A stretch of DNA of 5,171 nt from a virus (IMGVR_UViG_2602041644_000005); one strand, 5' to 3'; positions 148-4,965 are shown, counted from the first letter of the stretch. Translations and numbers: made by a program. Notes: generated by a model from the sequence alone, not told the origin.

Positions 148-486
148 CTATTTCCCTGAATTTACGACGAAACTGTTCGAGCGGGCTGAAGCACTCATGC
201 TCATAGCCTTCGCGGAGGTAGATAACACGTTGTGTTTCCGGTTCCCAACGAATGACTCTGACGGGCACTCCGTAGTGATCTTTGAACCAGCGGTTAACTT
301 GTCGCAAAGGACTGTCTCCTTCTGCCGGTTGAAATCACCCACAGCCCACTCAGCAAAGCTGTGGGTTACAATTTCCCTGTCACCTGGTACATTCACTGCA
401 TAGCAATATTCCACCTTCGCTTTTCCACCCGGTACAGGAAGCGCAATCAGTTGCGAGCGACGGTAGTGTGTTGTTAAACTGTTCAT
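148..486 (-). CDS. hypothetical early-operon protein (112 aa)
   Basis: ORF from the six-frame track. Its start ATG (486-484) overlaps the upstream gene's stop as ATGA (483-486). GGAG lies about 9 nt upstream on the minus strand. Its TAG stop (150-148) sits inside the SD of the next gene starting at 138. This translational coupling supports the minus ORF over the overlapping plus ORF 131-403. No recognisable motif. Confidence 0.6.
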
Positions 487-1040
487 GCGTTAGTTTCTCC
501 ACAACCAGAAGCAATCGACGCCACGACGCCCGGAGCTGCACACTCGCGGGCGTCATTACTTTCTGAAACACAAAAGATTTTGTAGACCAGTGCTGCATGC
601 TCCTGCAGCTTCGAAATTGAGAGGTACAGCTCGTCGTTAATTGCTGTCTTCTCATGCGGTTCCACTACACCGTCTTCGATTGCTGAACGAATCTGTTTTG
701 AATAACTGCCGATCTGTTCAATGACTTCCAGCAGACGCTGGTTAATATCGGCGTTGTCCACATCCTCGACGTCAGGAAGAGACACAAATACGCCATTTGC
801 AGACTGCGCCACAGCATCAGCAATGAAGTGAGTGCCACCAGCACGCTGTAAAACCATTGCCCATCCCAGCGGGAAAATCTGATCGCCATCGGCACGAAGG
901 CGGTTAAATAATGCGTTCTCTGTTACGTCCAGCCAGTCAGCAGCTTCAGCGTAACCCCCCGGCAACGCTGCGATAGTTTTTCTGACAGCTTTCACGTACC
1001 ACTCAGGCTGTTTTTCTATTTTCCAGTGATGCTTACCCAC
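483..1040 (-). CDS. phage early regulatory protein, possibly CII/YdaT-like (about 185 aa from a GTG start; maximal ORF extends to 1151)
   Basis: The maximal ORF 483-1151 (222 aa) would overlap the cro-like gene by 83 nt. An in-frame GTG at 1040-1038 is preceded on the minus strand by AGGAG (plus 1047-1051) with a 6-nt spacer and lies 28 nt after the cro-like stop (1069-1071), so it is the preferred start. Alternative ATG starts at 1118 and 1115 lack an SD. Family call rests on gene order (cro then cII/YdaT-like then replication) and weak recollection. Confidence 0.6.
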
Positions 1041-1068
1041 GGTTAACTCCTCGTTTCTGTGGTTACGT

Positions 1069-1332
1069 TTACGCAGCTGAACCGCTAACTTTTGAATAGC
1101 ACTCAGGTAATCCATCATTTGGATTGGGGTAAATATCAGGACGCAGTTCATGAGGGGTCACGGACCAGTTTCCCAACTCACAAAGTTGTAAAACCCGTTC
1201 TGACGGGACTTGATTGTTAATTACCCAATTAGCGACGGATTGAGTGGACTTAAAACCAAAGTGACGGGCTACTTCAGATAAAGATTTTCCCGCAGCTTTT
1301 ACTGCTTTCTCTGTGTAGTTTTGAGATGACAT
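1069..1332 (-). CDS. Cro-like / YdaS-family HTH transcriptional regulator (87 aa)
   Basis: ATG at 1332-1330 with AGGAG 6 nt upstream on the minus strand (plus 1333-1345 reverse complement is agaggagaaaggt). It is divergent from the CI-like gene across an operator-bearing intergenic region. The protein carries an HTH-like segment (LSEVARHFGFKSTQSVANWV) and an ELRPD motif typical of prophage Cro/YdaS-type regulators. Confidence 0.8.
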   Translation of the reverse strand: MSSQNYTEKAVKAAGKSLSEVARHFGFKSTQSVANWVINNQVPSERVLQLCELGNWSVTPHELRPDIYPNPNDGLPECYSKVSGSAA

Positions 1333-1356: not shown

Positions 1357-1364
1357 GGATGATG

Positions 1365-1400
1365 CTACTTAAAATAGCAGAATGCAACTACTTAAAATAG
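1365..1400. promoter_or_regulatory. Two copies of a 13-bp operator-like repeat CTACTTAAAATAG (1365-1377 and 1388-1400), candidate OR sites with PRM/PR-like promoter hexamers
   Basis: Exact 13-bp direct repeat with a 23-bp period. Each copy is an imperfect dyad (CTA.TT.AA.TAG, one mismatch). Each contains TAAAAT (a -10-like hexamer) 5-7 nt upstream of an in-frame ATG of the CI ORF (1382 and 1403). On the minus strand TTGCAT (-35-like) faces the cro-like gene. Confidence 0.5.
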
Positions 1401-2143
1401 AAATGACTAGCGTATGTGATGCGAGTAACCTTCTACCTATGGTAGAAGAACAGAAGTATCCAGATTTCGCCAAGAGACTAAACGAGCTAATGACAAACAA
1501 GGGAATTTCTGTCACCCAACTCAAAAGTCTTGTGGGCGTTACATATGAAATGGCGCGGCGATACACAATCGGCGCTGCGAAGCCTCGTGCCTCTGTCATG
1601 AATAAACTTGCATTGGCTCTGGGGGTATCAGCTTCATATTTAGAATATGGTGTTGGCGAGAGAGAAGGATGTAAGGAAATGGCAAGCATCCCCAATCCAA
1701 CAAAACCCGATGTATACAGGATAGAAGTTTTGGATCTTAGCGTTAGCGCAGGACCTGGAACCTATATGCTTTCAGACTATGTTGATGTGCTCTACGCCAT
1801 TGAGTTCACAACAGAGCATGCCCGTTCTCTTTTCGGTAATCGTTCTCAAGATGATATTAAAGTTATGACTGTAAATGGCGACAGCATGTCCCCTACTCTA
1901 GTTTCCGGAGATCGACTGTTTGTCGACATTTCTGTTCGCAACTTCCAAACTGATGGTGTTTACTCTTTCGTTTATGGTAAGACGTTCCACGTTAAACGTC
2001 TACAAATGCAAGGCAACAAACTCGCCGTTCTTTCGGATAATCCAGCCTATGAGAAATGGTACATTGATGAGAAGTCCCAAGATCAACTTTATGTTATGGG
2101 CAAAGCATTGATACACGAATCAATTAAATACAACCGGCTTTAG
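1382..2143 (+). CDS. cI: CI-like phage repressor: N-terminal XRE-type HTH plus C-terminal S24 (LexA-like) self-cleaving peptidase domain
   Basis: HTH segment FAKRLNELMTNKGISVTQLKSLVGVTYEMARRY. The C-terminal domain carries the catalytic Ser motif VNGDSMSPTL and a downstream Lys (HVKRL), as in LexA/CI/UmuD. It is divergent from the cro-like gene. The start is uncertain among in-frame ATGs at 1382, 1403 and 1439; none has an SD, which fits a leaderless PRM-type transcript. The gene symbol is used functionally, not as an identity claim. Confidence 0.85.
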   Translation: MQLLKIEMTSVCDASNLLPMVEEQKYPDFAKRLNELMTNKGISVTQLKSLVGVTYEMARRYTIGAAKPRASVMNKLALALGVSASYLEYGVGEREGCKEMASIPNPTKPDVYRIEVLDLSVSAGPGTYMLSDYVDVLYAIEFTTEHARSLFGNRSQDDIKVMTVNGDSMSPTLVSGDRLFVDISVRNFQTDGVYSFVYGKTFHVKRLQMQGNKLAVLSDNPAYEKWYIDEKSQDQLYVMGKALIHESIKYNRL

Positions 2144-2313: not shown

Positions 2314-3390
2314 ATGACAAAATCAATTTGTTTTTTTAATCATAAAGGTGGGGTAAGTAAAACCACAACAACCTTCAATCTTGGATGGGCACTTGCGGAT
2401 GAAGGCAAGAAAGTATTGATGGTTGACCTTGATTCGCAATGTAATCTAACAGGAATGGTTCTTGGCTATGAAAAGATTGATGAGGGTTTAGATTCTTTTT
2501 ATTCTAGCAGAGATAACTTAACTCTTGGACCTATTGTAGAATATTTGATTAATGGCGGACAACCTGAAGCATACCTTGAAAAAGAAACGGGAAAATTACA
2601 CCCTACACTGCATGAAAACCTTCTGCTTCTTCCCGGACATTTAGATGTTTCGGACTTAGATTCACAGATAAGTGTTTCTCTAAAAATTGCTGCTGGTATT
2701 CCTGCTACAAGAAATATACCAGGGAACCTGCCAAAAATATTACAGCTAATCGCCATGAAGAATAATATTGATTACATTCTTTATGATCTCAGCCCTAATG
2801 TTGGAGGTTTAAATGAAGTAGTTCTCATGTCAAGTGACTATTTTATCGTACCTGTAGCTCCAGACTTTTTTTGCTGGCAAGCAATTCGCTCTCTCTCAAA
2901 AAATATACCTCGCTGGCACAAAGAATTAGCATTATTTAAAGAAAATAATGATGGTAACTCTTCACAATCAATTAAAAATGCACCGCAGTTTCTAGGTATG
3001 ATTCAGCAGAGATACAGGCCGCGTAAAGGAGCACCTGTAAAATCTTTCGAAAAATGGATGGCAGCTATCCGTGATGCTGTTGATTCGATCTTAGTGCCAA
3101 ATCTAGAAAAAATTACCTGCATAATTCCACGAGATAAAGTGCAACATGCAATTAACAAAACAACAGTCAGTGGAGATTTATCAGCCTATGATCTTGCGCA
3201 TATTTCCGATTTCAACTCATTAATCGCAATAAGCCAACAACTAGCGACACCTGTTTTCTCCATCAGTGATCAGCAAATTCGCGATTCAGGGCAATTTGGG
3301 CATGCCTTAAATACAATGAAATCAAGCAGAGACGCCTTTAACGAACAATTTAAAGGGCTGGCTCAACGAGTTCTAGAACTTACAAAGTAA
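2314..3390 (+). CDS. ParA/MinD-family P-loop ATPase (deviant Walker A) with an uncharacterised C-terminal extension, 358 aa; orphan, no ParB partner
   Basis: N-terminus MTKSICFFNHKGGVSKTTTTFNLGWALADEGKKVLMVDLDSQCNLT matches the ParA/Soj/MinD deviant Walker A (KGGxxKT[TS]) and the following hhhhDxD motif. A mid-protein hydrophobic beta-strand plus Asp (YILYDLSPN) resembles ParA Walker B. AAGGA lies 9 nt upstream of the ATG. The gene is clearly more AT-rich than its neighbours (hand counts of 60-nt samples give roughly 28-45% GC against about 50% in the cro-side genes). The final about 150 aa are not recognisable. Confidence 0.85.
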   Translation: MTKSICFFNHKGGVSKTTTTFNLGWALADEGKKVLMVDLDSQCNLTGMVLGYEKIDEGLDSFYSSRDNLTLGPIVEYLINGGQPEAYLEKETGKLHPTLHENLLLLPGHLDVSDLDSQISVSLKIAAGIPATRNIPGNLPKILQLIAMKNNIDYILYDLSPNVGGLNEVVLMSSDYFIVPVAPDFFCWQAIRSLSKNIPRWHKELALFKENNDGNSSQSIKNAPQFLGMIQQRYRPRKGAPVKSFEKWMAAIRDAVDSILVPNLEKITCIIPRDKVQHAINKTTVSGDLSAYDLAHISDFNSLIAISQQLATPVFSISDQQIRDSGQFGHALNTMKSSRDAFNEQFKGLAQRVLELTK

Positions 3391-3397
3391 TGCATGT

Positions 3398-3420
3398 GCC
3401 CGGCCGCATAACCGGGCTTT
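3398..3420 (+). terminator. Intrinsic terminator after the ParA-like gene
   Basis: GC stem GCCCGG (3398-3403) pairs with CCGGGC (3412-3417) around an 8-nt loop, followed by TTTACTCTTCTTT. It lies 8 nt after the TAA stop at 3388-3390. Confidence 0.55.
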
Positions 3421-3575: not shown

Positions 3576-3633
3576 CAACAACAAATATCTACTTTTTGTT
3601 GTTGATTTTTGCTACTTTAAGTAGCAACATAAT
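3576..3633. promoter_or_regulatory. Candidate OL-type operator/promoter: perfect 19-bp dyad TTGCTACTT-T-AAGTAGCAA (3609-3627), an upstream CTACTT half-site (3589-3594), a flanking 10-bp inverted repeat (3576-3585 / 3595-3604) and CATAAT (3628-3633)
   Basis: The dyad core CTACTTTAAGTAG matches the cI-proximal repeats CTACTTAAAATAG at 11 of 13 positions. The two CTACTT half-sites here are 22 bp apart, against 23 bp at the cro/cI site. -35-like TTGCTA and -10-like CATAAT overlap the dyad. Everything is read directly from the sequence; function is inferred. Confidence 0.45.
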
Positions 3634-3736
3634 GTAAGCTATCACGGACAGGCAGGACGCCCACGAAGTAGCCGCCGGTGGCGTATGAATGACCGGATGA
3701 TTCGTTAGCAACAAAAAAGCGCCCTACCGGACGCTT

Positions 3737-3750
3737 CGCTCTTTAAAAAT
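3737..3750 (+). promoter_or_regulatory. boxA-like element CGCTCTTTAAAAAT (possible nut-site component)
   Basis: Near-identical to the boxA consensus (GCTCTTTAACAA in rrn; CGCTCTTAAAAATT in lambda nutL as I recall it). It sits about 110 nt downstream of the OL-like promoter on the plus strand. No convincing boxB hairpin follows, so this is tentative. Confidence 0.3.
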
Positions 3751-3853
3751 CAGTAACCCTCACTTTGGGCCTGGATCTGGTGGCCTGGGACGAGGTGGAA
3801 TATGAAAAGGCTCTATTGGTCGACTCATTATCCAATCCTATTATGTCTCATTT

Positions 3854-3902: not shown

Positions 3903-4397
3903 TTATGCTTGTTGGTCATCATTAATATCCGTTAGTTCATTCTCTAGAGGTAGATCTCCCGCACACCAAGCTATAAATTTTTCTTTGGTTGTTAAATCGT
4001 ACTTAGTTGGAACACCAGCAAAAATACAGGCCCGAATGAAAGCCGCTCGTTCAAGTGATTTCCATGGATTACTATCAGTATCTTGGATTTTTAAATACCT
4101 AGCTTGCAACTGATCTTCAGGAAGGGTATCAGACTCAATCAGCAGTCTTTTGTAATGCCTCGCTTGCTCTTTAGACATTCCAGCCTCTTGGCCAAACTGA
4201 TAGACCAACTGAAGAACCGAAAGTACGGCAACAAACAAACCGAAAATAAATAAATTACTGTACGGGGCGAAAACTGAAAAACCGAGAACGATTAACATCA
4301 ACGTTATTAATTTATCAATGCGAGTTAACAACGTGTAATTCATCTTCTCCAATACATAAGAGTAGTGAACATAAAATTTATAATCGTCTCTGGTCAT
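3903..4397 (-). CDS. Small inner-membrane protein (164 aa; two predicted N-terminal TM helices plus charged C-terminal domain); candidate SieB-like superinfection-exclusion or abortive-infection protein
   Basis: A 495-nt ORF in AT-rich DNA, where stop codons are frequent, so unlikely by chance. The hydrophobic hairpin LITLMLIVLGFSVFAPYSNLFIFGLFVAVLSVLQLVY is followed by a K/E/D-rich soluble region. It is oriented opposite to cI and convergent with the ParA-like gene. The start is ATG 4397, or ATG 4343 with GGAG 3 nt upstream. SieB-like is a guess from size, topology and genomic context only. Confidence 0.65.
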   Translation of the reverse strand: MTRDDYKFYVHYSYVLEKMNYTLLTRIDKLITLMLIVLGFSVFAPYSNLFIFGLFVAVLSVLQLVYQFGQEAGMSKEQARHYKRLLIESDTLPEDQLQARYLKIQDTDSNPWKSLERAAFIRACIFAGVPTKYDLTTKEKFIAWCAGDLPLENELTDINDDQQA

Positions 4398-4496
4398 ATT
4401 AGTCTCAGTTTTCCTTGGGTGGTTTTGGAGGAACTGGAGGCTTTTGTCTTAACGGCACATGCCTCTCCTCATACTTATCTACACATAGATCCATAT

Positions 4497-4553
4497 AAAT
4501 CCTTATCGTTGTTGGGGAGGGTTACATAATAACCAAATCCTTGTTGTTGGGGA
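4497..4553. repeat. Direct repeat AAATCCTT(ATC)GTTGTTGGGGA (4497-4518 and 4535-4553) flanking a small inverted repeat GGTTA-cataa-TAACC (4520-4534)
   Basis: Read directly. It lies in the non-coding region upstream (on the minus strand) of the 164-aa gene, near the right edge of the AT-rich segment. Confidence 0.5.
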
Positions 4554-4782
4554 ATAACCAGGTCCACCTCGCCTGATGTGGCTAAAAGCAGGCACATAAC
4601 AGCTAAGTATTTTCAACCAGAGAGAATCCTTAGCGTTGTGGTGAATGCGCAGGCTGATGCGCGAAAGACATTGCAGCTATTGCGGAAAAGAGCTGTTCGG
4701 CGGGGCAATTAAACGCCCGTGAGAGTCTGAAATAACCGCAAGCCGGAGATCAGCACCGGTCACCACAACAGCCACTGCTTTG

Positions 4783-4828
4783 GCGGTACCAGTTTGTACA
4801 CTTGCTTCCGGCTGGTACCGCTCTTTTT
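4783..4828 (+). terminator. Intrinsic terminator or attenuator (10-bp stem GCGGTACCAG / CTGGTACCGC, 19-nt loop, then TCTTTTT)
   Basis: Perfect 10-bp stem 4783-4792 pairs with 4812-4821, followed by a run of five T at 4824-4828. It is plus-oriented (the minus strand has no T-run after the stem). It lies about 140 nt upstream of the ATG at 4966. Confidence 0.55.
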
Positions 4829-4917
4829 ACAAAACAGAGAAGAGCATCACCGGACGACGGGCTCATAACCCAATCCATCCGGGCGGCTGCCACCGCAGGT
4901 GTTCTTCTCTGTTTTGT
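4829..4917 (+). other. Long-range inverted repeat forming a potential 20-bp RNA helix (4829-4848 with 4898-4917) that encloses about 49 nt, immediately upstream of the RBS of the 4966 gene
   Basis: ACAAAACAGAGAAGAGCATC pairs with GGTGTTCTTCTCTGTTTTGT; 17 of 17 core positions pair if one G-U is allowed, and the helix extends to 20 bp with a second wobble. A stem this long is unusual for a simple terminator and has the length RNase III recognises. Confidence 0.4.
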
Positions 4918-4965
4918 GGAGAAACCAACCGACCTTGCAGGGTCGATATGATGAGGAGCAGCAAA

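What the first reader, a model, noticed from the sequence alone, without database searches (positions are those of the whole stretch)
3576..3640. Perfect 19-bp palindrome with overlapping promoter-like hexamers: candidate OL/pL, or alternatively a centromere-like site for the ParA-like ATPase
TTGCTACTT-T-AAGTAGCAA is a perfect dyad, rare by chance. It is flanked upstream by a 10-bp inverted repeat (CAACAACAAA / TTTGTTGTTG) and overlapped by TTGCTA and CATAAT. Two readings are possible: a repressor-controlled pL-like promoter, or a parS-like site recognised by a partner of the adjacent orphan ParA. The shared half-site with the cro/cI operators favours the first.
Basis: partly seen in the sequence, partly recalled or inferred. 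Interest (0 to 1): 0.5.

Follow-up and report, generated by a model that had tools for sequence, protein, structure and literature searches.

The report
Prophage OL/pL operator plus leader RNA
The palindrome is an ordinary repressor-binding operator over the early-left promoter of a lambda-like prophage, not a partition site. The transcript it controls begins with a widespread, strongly conserved structured RNA that matches no Rfam 15 family and that I could not find in the literature I could search.

Summary
The 19-bp perfect palindrome (3609-3627) is real. Its core CTAC-N5-RTAG occurs only four times in the window: three times in the cro/cI intergenic region and once here (0.18 expected). 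A weaker copy lies 23 bp upstream, the same spacing as at OR.

Across relatives the site follows the CI repressor, not the ParA-like gene:
- 99%-identical CI without ParA: site kept.
- 97%-identical CI with an unrelated ParA (23% identity): site kept.
- 60%-identical ParA with a different repressor (phage ST160): site absent.

So the OL/pL reading is supported and the parS reading is rejected.

The likely promoter is TTGATT-17-CAACAT, reading rightward.

Directly downstream (about 3641-3706) lies a roughly 65-nt three-helix RNA:
- It has a 23-nt segment that was fixed by my search seed, and 10 of 14 pairs change on both sides yet stay paired.
- It sits at the 5' end of pL transcripts in many N-less lambdoid phages.
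- It is in 1,534 of 5,426 E. coli genomes, including K-12 e14.
- It matches no Rfam family and is not HK022 put.

I infer, without a test, that it is a cis-acting antitermination element.

The parts
3609..3627 (.). OL1: perfect 19-bp palindrome, core CTACTTTAAGTAG at 3612-3624. Predicted high-affinity CI/Cro operator lying in the spacer of pL and overlapping its -10.
   Evidence: Kept in relatives with the same CI whether or not ParA is present.
3587..3603 (.). OL2: degenerate operator ATCTACTTTTTGTTGTT, core 3589-3601. Its centre is 23 bp from the centre of OL1, and it abuts or overlaps the -35.
   Evidence: Repeat family D3 and inverted pair I1. L130 has the better dyad CTACTTTTTGTAG at the same place, and L131 and L008 keep TCTACTTTTTGTTGTTG.
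3602..3630 (+). Predicted pL: -35 TTGATT (3602-3607), 17-bp spacer, -10 CAACAT (3625-3630). CATAAT (3628-3633) is an overlapping alternative -10. Predicted start about 3636-3641.
   Evidence: Best sigma-70 match in the zone is 7 of 12. The -10 ends 19 nt before AGGCAGG, which is the modal distance in 168 related loci. It mirrors the putative pR, TTGCAT-17-CATCAT, on the other side of cI (read). It is not called by the consensus scan.
3576..3604 (+). 10-bp inverted repeat CAACAACAAA / TTTGTTGTTG enclosing the OL2 half-site. As RNA it forms a -10.4 kcal/mol hairpin followed by AUUUUUG. It may be a weak insulator terminator for cI-parA read-through, or it may be fortuitous.
   Evidence: The left arm is absent in L130, L131 and L008.
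3641..3706 (+). Conserved pL-leader RNA. P1 pairs 3644-3648 with 3701-3705. Pa pairs 3651-3653 with 3659-3661 and has the loop AGGAC. P2 pairs 3675-3679 with 3692-3696. The 23-nt segment AGGCAGGACGCCCACGAAGUAGC lies at 3650-3672, and the junction AUGA at 3697-3700.
   Evidence: Covariance model hit at 3638-3713, 84.7 bits.
3716..3737 (.). G+C-rich hairpin. On the minus strand it is a terminator-like site for the convergent 3903-4397 gene. On the plus strand it directly precedes boxA.
   Evidence: It recurs as a module with boxA in other phages.
3741..3753 (+). boxA-like CGCTCTTTAAAAA. It is close to lambda nutL CGCTCTTAAAAAT. SfIV-type relatives carry GCTCTTTAACAA here.
1363..1402 (.). OR operators TGCTACTTAAAATAGCA (1363-1379) and AACTACTTAAAATAGAA (1386-1402), 23 bp apart, between cro (1069-1332, minus strand) and cI.
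1432..1446 (.). Third site of the same motif, TCTACCTATGGTAGA, over the cI start codon (ATG at 1439).
1439..2143 (+). cI-type repressor (HTH_3 plus Peptidase_S24): the protein predicted to bind the operators.
2314..3417 (+). ParA-like ATPase gene (2314-3390) with its own terminator (3398-3417). It is a moron in the slot between cI and OL, where lambda carries rexAB. It is not functionally tied to the palindrome.

Best explanation
The palindrome is OL1, the main operator of the early-left promoter (pL) of an SfV/e14-like lambdoid prophage.

Proposed mechanism:
1. Dimers of the LexA-like CI repressor (1439-2143) bind OL1 and the weaker OL2 23 bp upstream. They probably bind cooperatively, as at the two OR sites that have the same spacing.
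2. Binding occludes a rightward sigma-70 promoter, TTGATT-17-CAACAT (3602-3630).
3. After SOS-induced CI self-cleavage, transcription starts near 3637-3641.
4. The first ~65 nt of the transcript fold into a conserved three-helix RNA, followed by a hairpin and a boxA.
5. I propose that this leader makes RNA polymerase resistant to termination. The polymerase could then cross about 1.3 kb of untranslated sequence, antisense to a reverse-oriented moron, and reach the recombination and xis/int genes.

Shown here: motif recurrence, spacing, position, co-variation with CI, and the RNA structure with its distribution.

Inferred only: CI binding, the exact start site, cooperativity or looping, and the antitermination role.
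For: Operator family:
- CTACNNNNNRTAG occurs only at 1365, 1388, 1433 and 3612, against 0.18 expected, with 0 of 200 shuffles reaching that count.
- OR and OL are 46-nt mirror images, 78% complementary, each with two sites 23 bp apart (I1 and D3).

Position:
- The site lies after the ParA terminator and upstream of same-strand genes that run to excisionase and integrase.

Co-variation test:
- L130: CI 99% identical, no ParA, both operators kept.
- L131: CI 97%, ParA only 23% identical, GCTACTTTTAGTAGC kept.
- L008: CI 45% (HTH region 54%), no moron, CTACTTAAAGTAG lies between TTGCAA-18-TATAGT.
- ST160: ParA 60% identical in the same slot, repressor 37%. No such palindrome; it has its own operators, shared with its own OR.

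Promoter:
- 51% of 168 related upstream zones have a sigma-70 match of at least 9 of 12, against 3.6% of control zones.
- The -10 most often ends 19 nt before AGGCAGG. The window's CAACAT does the same.

RNA:
- 95.4% of cells are paired, against 22-43% when partners are slid.
- 10 of 14 pairs show compensatory change, and RNAalifold predicts the same structure independently.
- The top mutual-information pairs are the predicted pairs.
- There is one copy per locus.

Need for antitermination:
- SfII, SfV and SfIV have no N (PMC3851460).
- 66 of 80 loci have opposite-strand terminator-like sites within 2.5 kb downstream.
- The first ORF downstream is not conserved: 59 clusters.
Against: - The window's pL hexamers are weak (7 of 12), and the consensus scan calls no promoter there.
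- There is no transcript or binding data.
- OL2 is a poor dyad in this window.
- For the RNA's role:
  - The covariance model finds nothing in HK022 or HK639, so it is not a put RNA.
  - No second copy lies downstream of pR.
  - Only 22 of 80 loci show a same-strand intrinsic terminator within 2.5 kb.
  - boxA accompanies the RNA in at most 18 of 100 downstream contexts, and that count allows two mismatches, so it includes some chance matches.
  - The single-sequence minimum-energy fold differs from the conserved structure and is no better than shuffles.
Confidence: 0.85

Rival explanations
1. The palindrome is a parS-like centromere recognised by, or through a partner of, the adjacent orphan ParA-like ATPase.
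For: It lies 220 bp downstream of the ParA-like gene. Partition sites are often palindromic and sit next to par genes. The gene matches AAA_31/CbiA and phrog_164, 'ParA-like partition protein'.
Against: - The site is kept where ParA is absent (L130, L008) or replaced by a protein only 23% identical (L131).
- It is absent next to a 60%-identical ParA in ST160.
- No ParB-type gene is present in the window or in the 18.5-kb context.
- The Walker A motif starts at residue 11, so there is no N-terminal DNA-binding domain.
- A terminator separates the gene from the site.
- The prophage is integrated and has an integrase.
- The same motif also flanks cI on the other side.
Confidence: 0.03
2. The site is a genuine CI operator but serves mainly as a looping or cooperativity anchor for OR. 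Under this reading it is not the control of a functional promoter, and pL has decayed in this lineage.
For: The hexamers are weak (7 of 12) and the scan makes no promoter call. OL lies about 2.25 kb from OR, close to the lambda OL-OR distance as I recall it. L131 keeps the operators but has lost the leader RNA.
Against: - The -10 register is the modal one among 168 loci.
- The leader RNA directly downstream is intact and scores 84.7 bits.
- The prophage context still has xis and int downstream.
- Close relatives have the same architecture with better -10 hexamers, CATCAT and TATAGT.
Confidence: 0.07
3. The leader RNA is not an antiterminator. Alternatives: a 5' stabiliser or processing signal; a ligand- or protein-sensing regulatory element; the body of a small RNA ending at the 3716-3737 hairpin; or a nut-like site for a phage protein encoded elsewhere.
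For: - A compact three-way junction with junction nucleotides that vary little is also typical of aptamers.
- No put similarity and no pR copy.
- In the window a hairpin with a short U-rich tail follows it.
Against: - There is no conserved expression platform or terminator after it: 59 different first ORFs and varied downstream sequence.
- No conserved protein is encoded next to it.
- Its conservation across phages of many genera with unrelated repressors points to a conserved host partner.
Confidence: 0.5

Closest known systems
Lambda OL/pL, the CI- and Cro-controlled early-left operator-promoter
   Same: - Position after the cI-plus-moron operon and before the early-left genes.
- Operators of the same motif as at OR.
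- Adjacent sites about 23-24 bp apart.
- Mirror symmetry with OR.
- The promoter reads away from cI.
   Different: - The operator sequence is different (CTAC-N5-RTAG).
- I can see two sites, not three.
- The hexamers are much weaker than lambda pL.
- A ParA-like gene replaces rexAB.
- No N gene follows.
HK022 and HK639 putL, the cis-acting antiterminator RNA
   Same: A structured RNA of about 65-70 nt at the very 5' end of the pL transcript of an N-less lambdoid phage (PMC9378689; HK639 annotation).
   Different: - No sequence or structure match: the covariance model finds nothing in HK022 or HK639.
- It is a three-helix junction closed by P1, not two tandem stem-loops.
- There is no second copy after pR.
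- The activity is untested.
Lambda and P22 nutL (boxA plus boxB, N-dependent)
   Same: - boxA CGCTCTTTAAAAA at 3741-3753 against lambda CGCTCTTAAAAAT.
- The lambda and ST160 pL leaders share CAGCAGGACGC with the RNA's conserved segment.
   Different: - No N-like gene.
- No boxB with an N-type loop.
- boxA is present in only a minority of phages that carry the RNA.
ParABS partition sites (P1 parS, F sopC)
   Same: A palindromic DNA site close to a ParA-family ATPase gene.
   Different: - No ParB.
- The site does not co-vary with ParA.
- The element is an integrated prophage.

Membership tests
Lambdoid OL/pL operator-promoter | Operator sequence shared with the OR region of the same phage | tested here: met
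   CTACNNNNNRTAG occurs only at 1365, 1388, 1433 and 3612, against 0.18 expected. The 15-mer with up to 3 mismatches occurs only at 1364, 1387 and 3611.
Lambdoid OL/pL operator-promoter | Two or more adjacent sites spaced for cooperative binding | tested here: met
   23 bp centre to centre at both OR and OL (D3 and I1). The same spacing is seen in L130, L131 and L008.
Lambdoid OL/pL operator-promoter | Site specificity follows the repressor allele across mosaic relatives | tested here: met
   Kept with CI 97-99% identical, with or without ParA. A related half-site is seen with CI 45% identical. Absent with an unrelated repressor.
Lambdoid OL/pL operator-promoter | Overlapping sigma-70 promoter reading away from cI into the early-left genes | tested here: inconclusive
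   TTGATT-17-CAACAT scores only 7 of 12 and is not called by the scan. However, it is in the modal register of 168 homologous loci, 51% of which score at least 9 of 12. Direction is fixed by synteny.
Lambdoid OL/pL operator-promoter | Repressor binding and repression demonstrated | not testable with these tools
   Needs EMSA or footprinting and reporter assays.
ParABS centromere (parS) | Cognate centromere-binding protein (ParB or equivalent) encoded alongside | tested here: not met
   No such gene in the window or in the 18.5-kb context.
ParABS centromere (parS) | Site co-occurs and co-varies with the par genes | tested here: not met
HK022-type put RNA | Sequence and secondary-structure similarity to putL/putR (two tandem stem-loops) | tested here: not met
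   Model R1 gives no hit at E up to 10 in HK022 (L002) or HK639 (L133, annotated putL-like RNA). The consensus is a three-helix junction.
HK022-type put RNA | Located just downstream of pL, with a second copy downstream of pR | tested here: inconclusive
   The pL position is met. The second copy is not found: one hit per locus in 100 loci, apart from one partial relic in L099.
HK022-type put RNA | Factor-independent antitermination that depends on the beta-prime zinc-binding domain | not testable with these tools
   Needs read-through assays in wild-type and rpoC mutant hosts.
N-dependent nut site | boxA followed by a boxB hairpin, with an N gene downstream | tested here: not met
   boxA is present at 3741-3753. 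I recognised no N-like ORF by eye among the plus-strand ORFs between 3754 and 4948; they were not scanned against any protein library. SfII, SfV and SfIV are reported to lack N. The hairpin at 3758-3771 does not have an N-type loop.
Any Rfam 15 family | Covariance-model match | tested here: not met
   No hit at E up to 1 on the whole window. At E up to 10 on 3630-3780 the only hit is a sub-threshold ctRNA match to the minus-strand terminator.

The most novel reading that the evidence does not exclude
The RNA at about 3641-3706, which the palindrome-controlled promoter transcribes first, may be a previously undescribed class of cis-acting processive antitermination RNA. It would be a functional analogue of HK022 put but unrelated to it in sequence and fold. 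Under this reading, N-less lambdoid phages of Enterobacterales and Aeromonas, including E. coli K-12 prophage e14, use it to carry pL transcription through untranslated, antisense and terminator-containing DNA.
Probability: 0.3. Interest if true: 0.8.

Novelty: new member of a known kind. Interest (0 to 1): 0.5.

Why it matters
The operator itself only defines one more immunity specificity among lambdoid prophages, with an experimentally addressable consensus (CTAC-N5-RTAG, sites 23 bp apart). It also shows that the ParA-like gene is a moron in the cI-to-OL slot, where lambda carries rexAB.

The wider value is the leader RNA:
- It is in about 28% of complete E. coli genomes, including K-12.
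- It is in prophages of at least 57 species assemblies. Almost all are Enterobacterales; one is labelled Pseudomonas lundensis and one Chryseobacterium.
- Its covariation support is very strong.
- It is absent from Rfam 15.

It offers a concrete, testable candidate for a long-standing gap: how SfV-, e14- and ST64B-type phages, which have no N protein and no put RNA, express their distal early-left genes.

Tried and rejected
- **Rfam.** A scan of the whole window and a lax scan of 3630-3780 gave no family.
- **put membership.** I read HK022 putL/putR and the annotated HK639 putL-like RNA and searched both with the new model. No match.
- **Single-sequence folding.** The minimum-energy fold of the leader is no better than shuffles and differs from the conserved structure, so thermodynamics alone is uninformative.
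- **Second copy.** None after pR or elsewhere, except a truncated relic in L099.
- **Conserved partner protein.** The first ORFs downstream fall into 59 unrelated clusters.
- **Same-strand intrinsic terminators downstream.** Only 22 of 80 loci have one, so the antitermination argument rests more on antisense and untranslated read-through.
- **Exact k-mer sharing between the OL zone and the 0.3-4.1 kb upstream region across loci.** The enrichment is modest (k=13: 9 of 84 against 2 of 84) because operators are degenerate.
- **PADLOC for the ParA-like protein.** Only weak hits restricted to the Walker-A region.
- **Literature.** Full-text searches for the conserved 14- to 20-mers found nothing. 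King 2011 (PMC3187212) is not held.
- **TTGCTA/CATAAT as the promoter pair.** Rejected because the spacer is 13 bp.

Full report
**Context**

The window is the immunity region of a lambdoid prophage, drawn in the opposite orientation to the lambda map. Its features, in order:
- A YmfL/CP76 (cII-like) gene, 483-1043, minus strand.
- A YdaS/Cro-like gene, 1069-1332, minus strand.
- A CI-type repressor with HTH_3 and Peptidase_S24 domains, 1439-2143, plus strand.
- A ParA-like ATPase, 2314-3390, plus strand, with its own terminator at 3398-3417.
- The finding, at 3576-3640.
- A reverse-oriented 164-aa gene, 3903-4397, minus strand.
- A plus-strand gene starting at about 4948.

An identical copy sits in E. 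coli AVS0542, integrated next to yecE. There the plus-strand genes continue through rdgC and yfdR to excisionase and integrase. Any early-left promoter must therefore read rightward in window coordinates.

**Observation**

The palindrome TTGCTACTTTAAGTAGCAA is exact at 3609-3627. The arms CAACAACAAA (3576-3585) and TTTGTTGTTG (3595-3604) are exact complements. TTGCTA (3609) and CATAAT (3628) are both present.

A perfect palindrome with arms of at least 9 turns up in about 5% of Markov-1 shuffles of a window this size, so alone it is only mildly unusual. What is far beyond chance is recurrence:
- The 15-mer with up to 3 mismatches hits only 1364, 1387 and 3611, and 0 of 200 shuffles reach three hits.
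- The core CTACNNNNNRTAG hits only 1365, 1388, 1433 and 3612, against 0.18 expected.

A further degenerate copy, CTACTTTTTGTTG (3589-3601), lies 23 bp upstream of the palindrome. That is exactly the spacing of the two sites between cro and cI. The two regions are 46-nt mirror images of each other, 78% complementary (D3 and I1).

**Which protein owns the site**

Mosaic relatives give a clean two-by-two test.

| Relative | Repressor vs window CI | ParA-like gene | Site |
|---|---|---|---|
| L130 | 99% (HTH region 100%) | none; two unrelated genes instead | both operators kept, 23 bp apart, in front of the same leader RNA |
| L131 | 97% | present, only 23% identical | GCTACTTTTAGTAGC and the upstream site kept |
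| L008 | 45% (HTH region 54%) | none; no moron | CTACTTAAAGTAG between a good TTGCAA-18-TATAGT promoter, same half-site at its OR |
| ST160 (P22-like) | 37% | 60% identical, same slot | no match to the palindrome with up to 3 mismatches; own operators, shared with its own OR |

The site follows CI, not ParA.

In addition:
- There is no ParB-type gene.
- The ParA-like protein begins directly with its Walker A motif, so it has no N-terminal DNA-binding domain.
- A terminator separates it from the site.
- The element is integrated in the chromosome.

The parS reading is rejected. The ParA-like gene is a moron in the slot between cI and OL, where lambda carries rexAB.

**Promoter**

TTGCTA and CATAAT are 13 bp apart and cannot form a sigma-70 promoter. 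The consensus scan reports nothing there.

By mirror symmetry with the other side of cI, where I read pR as TTGCAT-17-CATCAT on the minus strand, the homologous pL hexamers are TTGATT (3602-3607) and CAACAT (3625-3630), 17 bp apart. Relatives have CAATAT, CATCAT or TATAGT at the -10 position.

Across 168 distinct homologous upstream zones:
- 51% have a sigma-70 match of at least 9 of 12, against 3.6% of control zones.
- The -10 most often ends 19 nt before the motif AGGCAGG.
- The window's CAACAT also ends 19 nt before it.
- The window's own match is weak, 7 of 12.

OL1 therefore fills the spacer and overlaps the -10, and OL2 abuts the -35. This is the classic arrangement for repression by occlusion. 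The predicted start is about 3636-3641. This is inferred, not shown.

The upstream 10-bp inverted repeat is not conserved. Relatives lack its left arm, and its right arm is the degenerate half of OL2. As RNA it would form a -10.4 kcal/mol hairpin followed by AUUUUUG. It may weakly insulate pL from cI-parA read-through, but I give that low weight.

**What the promoter transcribes**

A distant DNA search showed that 3641-3751, and especially 3645-3704, is 85-97% identical in unannotated intergenic DNA of phages of many genera. These include SfV, SfII, SfIV, ST64B, mEp460, ZF40, Yersinia YeP1-3, Pantoea AH07, Citrobacter phiNP and Aeromonas pAEv1818.

In the seven loci I examined in detail it lies on the cI strand, after the terminator of cI or of cI plus a moron. 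It starts a few nucleotides after a promoter that carries phage-specific palindromes; the wider set shows the same upstream layout.

*Structure.* Exact-seed scans gave 120 viral loci and 120 genomic loci. From 54 distinct sequences, my manual model and RNAalifold gave the same structure:
- P1, 6 bp, pairing the 5' leader with the 3' tail.
- A 3-bp hairpin, GGC-AGGAC-GCC.
- P2, 5 bp, with the conserved loop G-GC-R-UA-Y-GAA.
- The junction AUGA.
- The 23-nt segment AGGCAGGACGCCCACGAAGUAGC. The retrieval seeds lie inside it (a 20-nt seed, an 18-nt seed), so its invariance among retrieved loci is partly circular.

*Support.*
- 95.4% of cells are paired, against 22-43% when partners are slid.
- 10 of 14 pairs show compensatory change. 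P1 appears as GCGAA/UUCGC, GUCAUC/GAUGAC, CCACC/GGUGG and GCAAA/UUUGC. P2 appears in at least ten versions.
- Mutual information over 174 unique sequences ranks exactly these pairs first.

*Window coordinates.*
- P1: 3644-3648 with 3701-3705.
- Hairpin: 3651-3653 with 3659-3661.
- P2: 3675-3679 with 3692-3696.
- Model hit: 3638-3713, 84.7 bits.

**Distribution and identity of the RNA**

Distribution:
- The conserved 3641-3751 stretch, which contains the RNA, matches in 1,534 of 5,426 complete E. coli genomes by DNA similarity.
- It is in K-12 MG1655 prophage e14, between ymfK (cohE) and ymfJ, at NC_000913 positions 1,202,105-1,202,181 on the minus strand, scoring 74 bits.
- Hits above 70 bits occur in 57 species assemblies. 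Almost all are Enterobacterales, including Xenorhabdus, Photorhabdus, Yersinia, Serratia, Pantoea, Klebsiella, Citrobacter and Enterobacter. One assembly is labelled Pseudomonas lundensis and one Chryseobacterium.
- The seed matches in Planctomycetota and other high-G+C genomes score only 22-27 bits. I take them as chance.

Identity:
- It matches no Rfam 15 family, even with lax filters.
- None of its 14- to 20-mers appears in the searchable literature.
- It is not a put RNA. The model finds nothing in HK022 or in HK639, whose putL-like RNA is annotated and clearly resembles HK022 putL.
- There is one copy per locus, with no pR counterpart. The exception is a truncated relic in L099.

**Likely function of the RNA (inferred)**

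Arguments for a termination-resistance role:
- The SfIV genome paper states that SfII, SfV and SfIV lack N, cII and cIII (PMC3851460).
- In the window, pL transcripts must cross about 1.3 kb with no plausible plus-strand gene, antisense to the 3903-4397 gene, before reaching the next gene at about 4948.
- Among 80 loci, 66 have opposite-strand terminator-like sites within 2.5 kb downstream. Reverse-oriented morons are therefore the rule.
- The first downstream ORF is not conserved (59 clusters), which argues against a gene-specific element or an adjacent protein partner.
- Near-invariance across hosts and immunity types suggests a conserved host partner such as RNA polymerase or Nus factors.
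- The leader is followed by a hairpin (3716-3737) and a boxA-like CGCTCTTTAAAAA (3741-3753). That sequence closely resembles lambda nutL CGCTCTTAAAAAT. SfIV-type relatives carry GCTCTTTAACAA, which from memory equals the rrn boxA core.

These observations fit a cis-acting device that makes the elongation complex resistant to termination.

Arguments against:
- boxA accompanies only a minority of elements.
- Same-strand intrinsic terminators are seen in only 22 of 80 loci.
- The fold is unlike put.

I rate antitermination at about 0.4-0.5 among the possible functions. I rate the stronger statement, that this is an undescribed class of antiterminator RNA, at about 0.3.

**Verdict**

The finding itself is an ordinary, correctly interpreted OL/pL operator of an uncharacterised immunity type. 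It is a new member of a known kind, held with confidence 0.85. The noteworthy result is what lies immediately outside its right-hand boundary.

Noticed in passing
window 3641-3706 (model hit 3638-3713): A three-helix RNA at the 5' end of the pL transcript, with strong covariation support. It is present in many N-less lambdoid phages, in 1,534 of 5,426 E. coli genomes and in K-12 e14. It is not in Rfam and is not a put RNA.
   Followed up: yes
window 3716-3771: A hairpin, then the boxA-like CGCTCTTTAAAAA, then a second small hairpin (CCC-UCACUUU-GGG). The layout resembles lambda nutL, but no N gene is present. The hairpin-plus-boxA unit recurs as a module in other phages, at different distances from the leader RNA.
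   Followed up: partly
window about 4400-4947; L131 3960-4550: A long non-coding stretch upstream of the gene at about 4948. It carries a 25-nt inverted repeat (4829-4853 / 4893-4917) and three copies of AAATCCTT-N-GTTG (4497, 4535, 4624). The part from about 4620 onward is conserved in L131, where about 590 nt of untranslated sequence lies between pL and yfdP. Function unknown.
   Followed up: no
window 1432-1446: A third site of the operator motif, TCTACCTATGGTAGA, lies exactly over the cI start codon and is conserved in L130 and L131. It may be an OR3-like autoregulatory site.
   Followed up: partly
window 2314-3417; L132 2501-3574; L131 2538-3623: ParA-like ATPase genes occupy the slot between the repressor gene and OL in unrelated lambdoid phages. 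ST160 (P22-like) has one 60% identical, and L131 has one only 23% identical. No ParB accompanies them. This suggests a lysogen-expressed moron function rather than partition.
   Followed up: partly
L255 (lambda, read on the minus strand, locus positions about 560-585); L132 3975-4000: The lambda and P22-like pL leaders begin ATCAGCAGGACGC. They share CAGGACGC, and in ST160 also GUAGCC, with the conserved segment of the leader RNA. This may mark common ancestry, or a recombination joint between nut-type and RNA-type leaders.
   Followed up: partly
window 3903-4397 (minus strand): A reverse-oriented 164-aa gene with hydrophobic segments sits in the position where lambda has sieB. It matches only PHROGs of unknown function (phrog_6315).
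   Followed up: partly
L131 3895-3960: This relative keeps both operators and a CATCAT -10 but lacks the leader RNA. A different non-coding sequence follows pL there.
   Followed up: no
L099 976-1038 (minus strand): A second, truncated copy of the leader RNA lies about 650 nt downstream of the intact one, beyond what looks like an inserted reverse-oriented gene. It has P1 and P2 but lacks the AGGCAGGACGCC hairpin.
   Followed up: no
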